Assembly: GCF_030384885.1 (NCBI RefSeq)
Contig: NZ_CP128613.1
DNA: 64,000 bases
DNA from: Escherichia coli
Lineage (GTDB): Bacteria > Pseudomonadota > Gammaproteobacteria > Enterobacterales > Enterobacteriaceae
Strand: one strand, 5' to 3'
This document shows, piece after piece, positions 3,001-6,000 of this stretch. Position numbers: made by a program. Within the stretch, counting starts at the first letter, position 1, and each line of letters begins with the position of its first letter.

Positions 3001-6000
3001 AGACATATACACCACGAAAAAAATTGGATATCAGAAATAAAATGACAATAATGCGGTGGATTATATAGGCATAAAAGATAAATGAGATAGTATTTTCATC
3101 GGTGCGATATTGAACATTGATTTAAATAATAGGTTTGGCTTTGTTGTTTTTATTGTGAATGATATTTAATTTATGAATATATTAAGAAGAAGCCTTGTTT
3201 GGTTGCCTTAAATCGACAAAAGGCATTGAGGCGCTTCTGTGTAGTCTCTGACCTTATCTTAATTATTAATAAATACTATTTATTCTTTGTTTGTATTCAT
3301 TGGGTTGATTATTAAGATGCCGTTCGTTGCTGTTGCAATCTGTTTGTCACCGTTAATTATTTGTTATCCACAGAGATATGGAATGCGATCTGCTGATGAT
3401 TAAAATTGAAAAAGTAATTAATAAAAATGACATTAAGGCATTTATCGCTTTTCCGTCATCACTTTATCCCGATGATCCAAACTGGATACCCCCTTTGTTC
3501 ATTGAACGCAGCGAGCATTTGTCGGCGAAGAATCCGGGGACGGACCATATTATCTGGCAGGCGTGGGTAGCAAAAAAAGCGGGGCAGATAGTCGGGCGGA
3601 TTACCGCGCAAATCGATACCTTGCACCGCGAGCGTTACGGTGACGATACCGGTCATTTTGGCATGATTGACGCCATTGATGATCCGCAGGTTTTTGCCGC
3701 TTTGTTTGGCGCAGCGGAAGCATGGTTGAAGTTACAAGGTGCCAGTATGATCAGCGGGCCTTTCAGCCTGAATATCAATCAGGAAAGCGGATTACTGATT
3801 GAAGGTTTCGACACTCCGCCCTGTGCGATGATGCCGCACGGTAAACCGTGGTATGCCGCGCATATTGAACAATTGGGTTATCACAAAGGTATTGATTTAC
3901 TGGCGTGGTGGATGCAACGAACCGATCTCACTTTCTCTCCGGCGCTAAAAAAACTGATGGATCAGGTACGCAAAAAGGTGACCATTCGTTGCATCAATCG
4001 TCAGCGGTTTGCTGAAGAGATGCAGATCCTGCGTGAGATTTTCAACTCTGGCTGGCAGCACAACTGGGGATTTGTGCCGTTTACCGAACATGAATTCGCT
4101 ACCATGGGCGATCAACTAAAGTATCTGGTACCGGACGATATGATCTACGTCGCTGAGATTGGTTCTGCACCCTGCGCGTTTATTGTCGGCTTGCCGAACA
4201 TCAACGAGGCGATTGCCGATCTGAACGGATCGCTCTTTCCCTTCGGCTGGGCAAAATTGCTGTGGCGCTTAAAAGTCAGCGGTGTGCGAACTGCGCGAGT
4301 GCCGCTGATGGGCGTGCGTGACGAGTATCAGTTCAGCCGCATCGGCCCGGTGATTGCGCTGTTATTGATTGAAGCCTTACGCGATCCGTTTGCTCGCCGG
4401 AAGATCGATGCGCTGGAAATGTCATGGATCCTCGAAACCAATACAGGCATGAATAACATGCTGGAACGCATTGGAGCGGAGCCGTACAAGCGTTACCGAT
4501 TGTATGAAAAGCAGATTTAATACCAGATCCCATTAAGCGCACGGACGGTCATTCGGGAGAGTGTATAGATGAACAGATTTAACATCAGATCCTATTAAGC
4601 GCAGGGGCGGTCCCCTCGCCCCTCAGGGAGAGGGTTAGGGTGAGGGGGAAAACTCGGCTCACATTCCCCCCTTGTTCATCTCCAGTGGCACCGCCGAGCG
4701 AATCAAATGGTGGCCTTCCAGTTCGATATCGTGGAGATTCTTTTTCACGGTCCGCACATGATCACGTGCGGCGCGCTGGGCGACGTGCGGCAGTCGCTGC
4801 AACACCGCGTTGTAGATCCGCGCATGTTGGCGATCGATCTGCTTTTTTTGCTGTGGTCGATGGTAGAGATTATTTACGCTGGCAAACACTGAATTAAACA
4901 TCAGATCGGTCAATGATTGCAGCGTAAAAACTAGCACCTGATTGTGGGAAGCCTGACAAATGGCAAGATGGAAAGCATGATCCAGCTGCGCGTGTTCGAT
5001 CAGCGAAATTTCTTTGTTGTTTTCACTGGCGGCGAGCATTTTTTCATAACAGCGGGTTATCAAAACAAAATCCGCCTGGGTTCCCAGCGTAGCTGCCAAC
5101 CTTGCCGATTCGCCTTCCAGCAATGCGCGAACGTCGAGTAGATCGTATAGCGTTCGCGGCTGTGTACTGAACAGATGGATCAGCGGGCTGGTGTCCTGCA
5201 CGCGATTAAGGCGTGCGACACGAGAATCGCGCCCCTGTGCTGTTTCAATAATCCCGCGTCCGCGCAGCACGGTCAGCCCTTCACGCAGTGCGGAACGCGA
5301 GAAGCCGAGCTTTTCACACAGTCGACGCTCCGAAGGAAGCGGCTGACCGACCTTCAGCACGCCGTCGATAATTAACCGTTCGATACTCTCTGCAACCACT
5401 TCGCAAATAGGGCGACGTTCATCTTTCATTCCCGGACCTCGTGCACAGGTAGGACCAATTTTTCTGTTCTTGATTCGCAAAACACGCACATCACGTAAGT
5501 GATTATGTTACATCAATTTAACATTAAGTTAACCAAGGCAAGGTCACAGAGCTGGAAAAAAAATGGTCTGACCGGTAGCTAAAGAGATAGACGAAAACGA
5601 AAAGCCCGCTTAATAACTGTTCACAGAAGCAGCGCGCAAAAATCAGCTGCCACACAACACAACAAAGCGAACCCTACTCATGAGCATCTTGTACGAAGAG
5701 CGTCTTGATGGCGCTTTACCCGATGTCGACCGTACATCGGTACTGATGGCACTGCGTGAGCATGTCCCTGGACTGGAGATCCTGCATACCGATGAGGAGA
5801 TCATTCCTTACGAGTGTGACGGGTTGAGCGCGTATCGTACGCGTCCATTACTGGTTGTTCTGCCTAAGCAGATGGAACAGGTGACGGCGATTCTCGCTGT
5901 CTGCCACCGTTTGCATGTACCGGTAGTGACCCGTGGCGCAGGCACCGGACTTTCTGGCGGTGCGCTGCCGCTGGAAAAAGGTGTGTTGTTGGTGATGGCG

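What the first reader, a model, noticed from the sequence alone, without database searches (positions are those of the whole stretch)
3378..4520. yghO reading frame is intact here
A 380-aa uninterrupted ORF occupies the yghO position. If YghO is a GNAT-fold acyltransferase as I recall, it may be the functional partner of the divergent FAAL/ACP operon (for example N-acylation of an amino acid or amine).
Basis: inference. Interest (0 to 1): 0.4.

Follow-up and report, generated by a model that had tools for sequence, protein, structure and literature searches.

The report
E. coli YghO, predicted ceramide synthase
The intact yghO gene encodes a double-GNAT acyltransferase that matches the bacterial ceramide synthase of Caulobacter and sits beside the E. 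coli sphingolipid genes, a link already proposed in print but never tested for the E. coli enzyme.

Summary
An uninterrupted 380-codon ORF lies at 3378..4520(+), and RefSeq names it YghO. In K-12 an IS5 end replaces everything left of window position 3418. K-12 therefore keeps an open IS5-fused frame but has lost the native N-terminus, the promoter and the whole partner operon.

Among E. coli complete genomes, yghO occurs in 4553 of 5426 and the operon in 4163. The K-12-type IS5 junction (353 genomes) explains most of the gap. dN/dS is 0.05-0.08.

The most likely function is N-acylation of 3-ketosphinganine or sphinganine to make ceramide.

Padilla-Gómez et al. 2022 already list yghO (ECD_02850) as this acyltransferase, so the finding is already known as a prediction. 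What remains open is enzymatic proof and whether wild E. coli actually makes sphingolipids.

The parts
3378..4520 (+). yghO ORF (380 aa; the conserved core starts at residue 7-8; alternative start ATG 3396 gives 374 aa). Predicted bacterial ceramide synthase (bCerS/CerS family), a soluble tandem-GNAT protein.
   Evidence: The ORF is and the RefSeq name. The fold rests. Identity of 46% to the Caulobacter segnis positional orthologue of CC_1154 comes. dN/dS is 0.05-0.08. No transmembrane segment is predicted.
3016..3377 (.). AT-rich (29.8% G+C) divergent intergenic region between aasR and yghO. It presumably carries both promoters. K-12 has lost it.
   Evidence: Composition is. The loss in K-12 is shown. 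The consensus promoter scan found nothing above chance, and there was no Rfam match. Assigning promoters here is inference.
1297..3015 (-). aasR: an enzyme of the fatty acyl-AMP ligase family that loads the dedicated ACP (the 'FAAL' of the finding). The RefSeq start corresponds to window 3006.
   Evidence: NCBIfam 'fatty acyl-AMP ligase', 873 bits. It is essentially identical to PDB 3PBK 'Fatty Acyl-Adenylate Ligase'. The E. coli BL21 orthologue ECD_02851 was shown to acylate AcpR (PMC9386255).
386..1300 (-). epi/cerR: an NAD-dependent epimerase/dehydratase-family reductase, predicted to reduce the 3-keto group of the sphingoid base or ceramide.
   Evidence: Pfam Epimerase/NmrA. It is 36% identical to the C. 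segnis CerR-position ORF. ECD_02852 is named as 'epi' in PMC9386255.
106..354 (-). acpR: the specialised acyl carrier protein (82 aa).
   Evidence: Pfam PP-binding. The BL21 orthologue ECD_02853 was shown to carry 4'-phosphopantetheine (PMC9386255).
1..106 (-). First ~35 codons of spt (serine palmitoyltransferase). The rest of the gene lies beyond the window edge.
   Evidence: RefSeq annotation of the identical genome puts spt at L001 9935..11107, and window position = L001 position - 11001. Pfam Aminotran_1_2 hits the full protein.
4512..4612 (+). Strain-specific 62-nt tandem duplication that includes the last codons and stop of yghO. It does not alter the protein.
   Evidence: the repeat finder family D1. 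Only 1 of 5426 genomes covers the whole spacer.

Best explanation
YghO is the E. coli orthologue of the bacterial ceramide synthase (bCerS/CerS; Caulobacter CC_1154 = CCNA_01212).

Proposed pathway. AasR (the 'FAAL') adenylates a fatty acid and loads it on AcpR. Spt condenses acyl-AcpR with serine to give 3-ketosphinganine. YghO, a soluble cytoplasmic tandem-GNAT enzyme, then transfers a second fatty acyl chain from a thioester donor onto the C2 amine of the long-chain base, giving (oxidised) ceramide. The donor is acyl-CoA in the Caulobacter work, a point recalled from the literature and not checked here. The CerR-type reductase reduces the 3-keto group, either after acylation (Klein-lab order) or before it (Geiger-lab order). 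The neighbouring LptF/LptG paralogues probably export the lipid.

Shown here: the ORF, the fold, full-length homology to the Caulobacter positional orthologue, conserved gene neighbourhood, and purifying selection.

Shown by others: activity of the E. coli AasR, AcpR and Spt.

Inferred: the reaction catalysed by YghO itself, its acyl donor, and that the C-terminal GNAT domain is the catalytic one.

For: Orthology. YghO is 46% identical over residues 8-380 (E 3e-116) to the C. segnis ORF that directly follows two LptF_LptG-family genes. That ORF lies 8.4 kb from cerR-acpR-spt on the same strand. This is the CC_1164...CC_1154 order described in PMC11324152.

Neighbourhood. Of 80 species loci, spt is within 10 kb in 39, aasR in 40, acpR in 39, cerR in 38 and an lptG paralogue in 48. 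The divergent aasR at -2.0 to -2.7 kb is conserved from Enterobacterales to Pseudomonas, Nitrococcus and Nitrospira.

E. coli distribution. yghO is in 4553 and the operon in 4163 of 5426 complete genomes. The K-12 IS5 junction occurs in 353 genomes.

Selection and solubility. dN/dS is 0.05-0.08. No transmembrane segment is predicted, which agrees with bCerS being a cytoplasmic peripheral membrane protein (PMC11087976).

Literature. PMC9386255 lists 'aca: CC_1154, yghO ECD_02850'. It reports ceramide-like spots in BL21 when 3-oxo-sphinganine synthesis is switched on.
Against: No enzymatic or genetic test of E. coli YghO exists. The E. coli protein itself gives no Pfam or NCBIfam hit. I compared it with C. 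segnis, not with the characterised C. crescentus protein, and the primary bCerS paper was not available.

About half of the 80 loci show no spt within 10 kb. Published cases such as Nitrosomonas and Sphingomonas show that the genes can be unlinked, so this is weak counter-evidence.

No native sphingolipid has been reported from E. coli in the papers I could read. In this very strain the lptF paralogue is annotated as frameshifted, so the pathway may not be fully operative here.
Confidence: 0.85

Rival explanations
1. YghO is an N-acyltransferase of the same cluster, but it takes its acyl group directly from acyl-AcpR rather than acyl-CoA. This is the 'FAAL/ACP partner' logic of the first reader. 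Alternatively it might acylate an amino acid instead of a sphingoid base.
For: yghO is tightly and divergently linked to aasR-cerR-acpR. AasR of E. coli acylates only its own AcpR (PMC9386255). The donor for the E. coli enzyme has never been tested.
Against: In the published pathway, acyl-AcpR is the preferred substrate of Spt. The family co-occurs with spt itself in 39 of 80 loci, not merely with a ligase-ACP pair. Deletion of the Caulobacter orthologue abolishes dihydroceramide.
Confidence: 0.1
2. YghO is a housekeeping acetyltransferase, acting on protein lysines or a small molecule, and is unrelated to the neighbouring operon.
For: The closest solved structures are acetyltransferases: MAB_4324, glucosamine N-acetyltransferase, MshD and Eis. 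K-12 keeps an open yghO frame without the operon. Database names say 'N-acetyltransferase'.
Against: Identity to those structures is only 9-16%. YghO was in the GNAT panel screened for lysine acetyltransferases (strain and plasmid tables of PMC6199490), and from memory of that paper it was not among the enzymes reported as active. The conserved neighbourhood and near-complete co-occurrence with the spt operon outside the K-12 lineage argue for coupling. The K-12 situation is a recent IS5 deletion scar, present in 353 genomes that include K-12 laboratory derivatives.
Confidence: 0.04
3. YghO is a DNA-binding transcriptional regulator, as some database names state.
For: Some source names read 'DNA-binding protein' (rows P0041 and P0106).
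Against: The whole chain folds as two GNAT domains with pLDDT above 90 for 373 of 380 residues. No DNA-binding domain is detected by Pfam or by fold search.
Confidence: 0.01

Closest known systems
Bacterial ceramide synthase bCerS / CerS (Caulobacter crescentus CCNA_01212 = CC_1154)
   Same: Full-length homology: 46% identity to the C. segnis positional orthologue. Similar length (380 vs 386 aa), soluble with no transmembrane segment, and GNAT-type. Both sit in a cluster with spt, acpR, aasR, cerR and lptF/lptG paralogues. PMC9386255 already lists yghO as the E. coli counterpart.
   Different: Gene order differs. In E. coli and many gamma-proteobacteria yghO is divergent from and adjacent to aasR. 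In Caulobacter it lies at the far end of the locus, after lptF2-lptG2. The E. coli enzyme, its substrates and its product are untested, and no E. coli sphingolipid has been described. The E. coli locus has yghQRST, ytfJ-like and other genes in place of the Caulobacter cpgABC head-group genes.
Tandem-GNAT acyltransferases with solved structures (MAB_4324 7Q3A, glucosamine N-acetyltransferase 5KF1, CBG/ORF14 2WPW, mycothiol synthase MshD 1OZP, Eis, N-myristoyltransferase)
   Different: Only 9-16% identity. All but N-myristoyltransferase use acetyl-CoA and act on water-soluble acceptors. YghO is about 40-60 residues longer than the closest matches. No member of the YghO/bCerS family has a solved structure.
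Eukaryotic ceramide synthases (Lag1/CerS, TLC-domain integral membrane proteins)
   Same: The predicted reaction is the same: N-acylation of a long-chain base with a fatty acyl thioester.
   Different: Unrelated fold. The eukaryotic enzymes are multi-pass membrane proteins, whereas YghO is a soluble tandem GNAT. The order of acylation and reduction may also differ. This comparison rests on established knowledge and on PMC11087976.

Membership tests
Bacterial ceramide synthase (bCerS/CerS, CC_1154 family) | Full-length sequence homology to the characterised Caulobacter enzyme | tested here: met
   46% identity over residues 8-380, E 3e-116, to the C. segnis ORF at L064 9968..11128. That ORF occupies the CC_1154 position after lptF2-lptG2. 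The C. crescentus sequence itself was not available. PMC9386255 pairs CC_1154 with yghO.
Bacterial ceramide synthase (bCerS/CerS, CC_1154 family) | GNAT-type acyltransferase fold; soluble or peripheral, with no transmembrane helices | tested here: met
Bacterial ceramide synthase (bCerS/CerS, CC_1154 family) | Genomic association with spt and cerR (plus acpR and aasR in Proteobacteria) | tested here: met
   The genes are adjacent in this genome. spt, aasR, acpR and cerR lie within 10 kb in 38-40 of 80 species loci. The E. coli genome counts are.
Bacterial ceramide synthase (bCerS/CerS, CC_1154 family) | Catalyses N-acylation of 3-ketosphinganine or sphinganine with a fatty acyl thioester | not testable with these tools
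   This needs an enzyme assay. PMC9386255 only says that ECD_02850 'might be an N-acyltransferase'.
Bacterial ceramide synthase (bCerS/CerS, CC_1154 family) | Loss of the gene abolishes ceramide in vivo | not testable with these tools
   Shown for CC_1154 in Caulobacter, as cited. Never done for E. coli yghO.
GNAT superfamily (Pfam clan Acetyltrans) | Significant match to a GNAT sequence profile | tested here: inconclusive
   The E. coli protein has no Pfam hit even at E<=1. However, 10 of 14 homologues hit PF00583 (best E 5e-8). The family profile hits the PDB GNAT 3TT2 at E 0.0046.
GNAT superfamily (Pfam clan Acetyltrans) | GNAT fold (mixed beta-sheet with a beta4-alpha3 CoA-binding element) | tested here: met

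The most novel reading that the evidence does not exclude
Most natural E. coli carry a complete ceramide pathway: 4163 of 5426 complete genomes hold the spt operon next to an intact yghO that is under strong purifying selection. Under conditions that derepress the AT-rich divergent promoter region, they may make an outer-membrane sphingolipid that has not yet been described. YghO would be the ceramide synthase and the LptF/G paralogues the exporter. On this reading, the IS5 deletion in K-12 is why E. coli has been regarded as sphingolipid-free.
Probability: 0.4. Interest if true: 0.65.

Novelty: already known. Interest (0 to 1): 0.3.

Why it matters
E. coli is usually described as having no sphingolipids. 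The K-12 reference strain lost the whole cluster to an IS5-mediated deletion, and yghO is the scar that remains.

Showing that YghO is a working ceramide synthase would have three consequences. It would give a function to a long-standing y-gene. It would provide a tractable enterobacterial model for the bacterial, non-eukaryotic route to ceramide. And it would raise the possibility that commensal and pathogenic E. coli present sphingolipids to the host.

The idea itself is already in the literature. The value of this check is confirmation, plus some numbers: the fold, the extent of co-localisation, prevalence in E. coli, and selection.

Tried and rejected
- Pfam and NCBIfam scans of YghO gave no hit.
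- A sequence search of the PDB with YghO gave only chance-level matches.
- The primary bCerS paper (Stankeviciute et al. 2022) could not be read by DOI or by PMC id. Its content is cited only through later papers or marked as recalled.
- The search for related loci with the 86-sequence alignment failed for lack of a conserved stretch. A 14-sequence alignment worked.
- The afdb50 fold library was not available.
- The sigma-70 promoter and terminator scan of 2950-4750 found fewer promoter-like sites than shuffled controls, so no promoter can be assigned.
- Rfam found nothing in 2950-4720.
- I asked whether YghR/S/T are homologues of the Caulobacter ceramide kinase CpgB and rejected the idea. CpgB has an LCB5/DAG-kinase domain. 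YghR gives only weak thymidylate-kinase or AAA hits, and no tblastn hit to the Caulobacter locus was found.
- I looked at a genome that lacks yghO (H30). Its match was only a dispersed 45-nt repeat at another locus. A later search showed that the roughly 880 genomes without yghO also lack glcC. I did not determine what replaces the region.
- A literature search for native E. coli sphingolipids (UTI89, sphingolipid, serine palmitoyltransferase) found nothing.

Full report
**Observation.** With the window's own stop-codon frequency (0.037), 380 stop-free codons have a probability of about 6e-7. The window is 100% identical to E. coli strain 2013C-4282. RefSeq calls this CDS 'yghO: protein YghO' there, flanked by a 'fatty acyl-AMP ligase' on one side and glcC on the other.

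**The K-12 comparison.** In a K-12-type genome (L002), an IS5 transposase gene sits between a truncated yghQ and yghO. Alignment of the junction shows that homology to the window starts at window 3418; everything to the left is the IS5 terminus.
- The K-12 'YghO' is 97% identical over residues 10-380, but its first 11 residues (MISYQGLVRTF) are translated from IS5.
- K-12 therefore still has an open frame. It has lost the native N-terminus, the native upstream region and all the genes between yghO and yghQ.
- This junction occurs in 353 of the 5426 complete E. coli genomes.

**Start codon.** Homologues in Serratia, Pluralibacter, Hafnia, Erwinia and Mangrovibacter are 374 aa. They start at the equivalent of Met7, behind an AAGG ribosome-binding site.
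- All 150 listed family representatives begin to align at about residues 7-10.
- Residues 1-4 of the model are disordered.
- E. coli alleles keep the upstream ATG in frame, but the six extra codons differ by two non-synonymous changes between alleles.
- The real start may be 3378 or 3396. This does not affect the conclusion.

**What the protein is.** Pfam and NCBIfam give no hit for the E. coli protein, and no PDB chain is related by sequence. The family is nevertheless large. There are 6362 representatives at 50% clustering with E<=1e-3, and 1083 with E<=1e-30. Most of the 150 best listed are 370-400 aa, and the rest are fragments or longer fusion proteins.
- An AlphaFold2 model built on 86 diverse members is very confident: pLDDT 96.4, pTM 0.93.
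- The model shows the GNAT secondary-structure order twice in one chain.
- Foldseek against the PDB returns tandem-GNAT proteins first: 2WPW/2WPX, 7Q3A, 5KF1, MshD, VipF, Eis and FemX, with E down to 7e-16.
- Ten of 14 homologues hit Pfam Acetyltransf_1 (best E 5e-8).
- The family profile's weak PDB hits fall on positions 305-380, the beta4-alpha3-beta5 core of the C-terminal GNAT domain. From this I infer that the C-terminal half binds the acyl donor.
- The protein has no hydrophobic stretch long enough for a membrane helix.

**What the neighbours are.** On the minus strand of the window lie three genes.
- A fatty acyl-AMP ligase family gene at 1297..3015 (NCBIfam 873 bits). It is essentially the protein of PDB 3PBK.
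- An NAD-dependent epimerase/dehydratase-family gene at 386..1300.
- An 82-aa acyl carrier protein gene at 106..354.

The window edge hides the key gene. In the identical genome the next gene is spt, serine palmitoyltransferase, whose first ~35 codons are window 1..106. Beyond it lie lptG and lptF paralogues, a YtfJ-family gene, a hypothetical gene, the flippase-like yghQ, and yghR, yghS and yghT. This is the proteobacterial sphingolipid locus.

**Link to the known system.** In Caulobacter crescentus five genes are required for dihydroceramide: aasR CC_1165, cerR CC_1164, acpR CC_1163, spt CC_1162 and the N-acyltransferase CC_1154, called bCerS or CerS (PMC9386255, PMC11324152, PMC11087976).
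- My scan of one genome per species returned 80 loci that encode YghO relatives.
- In Caulobacter segnis the relative is 46% identical over residues 8-380 (E 3e-116).
- It lies immediately after two LptF_LptG-family genes and 8.4 kb downstream of cerR-acpR-spt on the same strand.
- That is the published CC_1164...CC_1156-CC_1155-CC_1154 order.

**Co-localisation across species.** Across the 80 loci, spt lies within 10 kb in 39, aasR in 40, acpR in 39, cerR in 38 and an lptG paralogue in 48.
- The E. coli arrangement, with aasR divergent 2.0-2.7 kb upstream, recurs in Enterobacterales, Pseudomonas, Salinicola, Nitrococcus, Nitrospira and several MAGs.
- In Nitrosomonas the YghO homologue sits with the lpt paralogue while spt is elsewhere. 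This matches the published Neut_1100 versus Neut_0458-0461 layout.

**Within E. coli.** The yghO region is found in 4553 of 5426 complete genomes, and the spt-acpR-cerR-aasR block in 4163.
- The K-12-type IS5 junction accounts for 353 of the roughly 390 genomes that have yghO but not the operon.
- The roughly 880 genomes without yghO also lack glcC, so a larger region is missing there.
- Nei-Gojobori estimates give dN/dS 0.08 against another E. coli allele and 0.05 against K-12, with unusually high dS (0.34 and 0.18).
- The gene is thus under strong purifying selection, and its alleles are old.

**Mechanism proposed.** AasR loads a fatty acid on AcpR, and Spt condenses acyl-AcpR with serine to 3-oxo-sphinganine. 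Both steps were demonstrated for the E. coli BL21 proteins (PMC9386255). YghO then N-acylates the long-chain base, and the CerR-type reductase reduces the 3-keto group.
- The LptF/G paralogues probably export the product together with LptB, as reported for Caulobacter in a 2026 preprint that also draws the E. coli UTI89 locus.
- The YghO step is an inference from orthology, fold and context.
- The only experimental hint is that BL21 cells made spots migrating like sphinganine and ceramide when 3-oxo-sphinganine synthesis was switched on. The authors attributed this to ECD_02852 and ECD_02850 (= yghO).

**Rivals.**
- Direct use of acyl-AcpR by YghO, or acylation of an amino acid, is not excluded but is less likely. 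The family tracks spt itself, and acyl-AcpR is the preferred Spt substrate.
- A stand-alone acetyltransferase role is weakly contradicted. YghO was in the GNAT panel screened for lysine acetyltransferases, and from memory of that paper it was not among the enzymes reported as active. It also co-occurs with the operon outside K-12.
- The old 'DNA-binding regulator' label has no support in the fold.

**Novelty.** The assignment is published. PMC9386255 lists 'aca: CC_1154, yghO ECD_02850' and states that the five dihydroceramide genes are clustered in E. coli BL21. This check adds several things:
- a confident tandem-GNAT model;
- the finding that no family member has a solved structure;
- quantified co-localisation across 80 species;
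- prevalence in about 77% of complete E. coli genomes, whereas the paper mentions only B strains;
- the exact K-12 junction;
- evidence for purifying selection.

I file the finding as already known, with modest interest. The open and testable question is whether wild E. coli really makes ceramide.

**Caveats.**
- I did not compare YghO with the C. crescentus protein itself.
- The primary bCerS paper could not be read, so the statement that bCerS uses acyl-CoA in vitro rests on my memory and on the name 'acyl-CoA N-acyltransferase' used in PMC9386255.
- The E. coli co-occurrence is inferred from counts, not from a per-genome table.
- No promoter could be assigned in the 29.8% G+C intergenic region.
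- In this particular strain the lptF paralogue is annotated as frameshifted, so the export step may be defective here.

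Noticed in passing
window 1..106 (- strand); L001 9935..11107: The first ~35 codons of spt (serine palmitoyltransferase) lie at the very start of the window, and the rest of the gene is cut off. 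This hidden gene identifies the 'FAAL/ACP operon' as a sphingoid-base operon.
   Followed up: yes
window 4512..4612: A 62-nt tandem duplication (copies at 4512-4550 and 4574-4612, 87% identical) includes the last codons and stop of yghO. It lengthens the yghO-glcC spacer to 138 nt. Only this strain among 5426 genomes has the full spacer; in K-12 the two genes are 6 nt apart.
   Followed up: partly
window 4610..4654; L083 9001..9046: A ~45-nt G+C-rich element (…GGTCCCCTCGCCCCTCAGGGAGAGGGTTAGGGTGAGGGGG…) also occurs between ybcF and purK in other E. coli genomes. It is a short dispersed repeat of unidentified family.
   Followed up: partly
L001 7755..8824 (outside the window, about 2.2 kb beyond its left edge): The lptF paralogue of the sphingolipid locus is annotated as frameshifted in this strain. 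Translation shows a single frame switch near codon 95. If this is real, sphingolipid export may be broken here, which is notable because loss of lptF2 is lethal in ceramide-phosphoglycerate-producing Caulobacter.
   Followed up: partly
window 3378..4520 compared with L003 10001..11143 and L002 5967..7103: Synonymous divergence between E. coli yghO alleles is high (dS 0.34 and 0.18, about 95% nucleotide identity to most genomes). This suggests old allelic lineages or recombination at this locus.
   Followed up: partly
window 3900..5489 (glcC plus the yghO 3' half): About 880 of 5426 complete E. coli genomes lack both glcC and yghO. A larger segment, including at least part of the glc region, is therefore missing or replaced in some lineages. 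I did not examine what sits there.
   Followed up: no
L001 2566..4934 (yghT, yghS, yghR); L006, L008, L009, L013, L037: Three paralogous P-loop 'dTMP-kinase-like' genes (yghR, yghS, yghT) travel with the sphingolipid cluster in several Enterobacterales and in a betaproteobacterial MAG (55% identity, next to the YghO homologue). They are not homologues of the Caulobacter ceramide kinase CpgB, and their role is unknown.
   Followed up: partly
window 1297..3015 (- strand): The neighbouring ligase is essentially identical to PDB 3PBK ('Fatty Acyl-Adenylate Ligase'). A crystal structure of the AasR partner therefore already exists under another name.
   Followed up: yes
proteins P0121 (784 aa, two matched stretches), P0131 (630 aa), P0188 (940 aa): Some family representatives are much longer than 380 aa. 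One appears to contain two YghO-like units and others carry extra N- or C-terminal regions. These may be fusion proteins of the ceramide synthase family.
   Followed up: no
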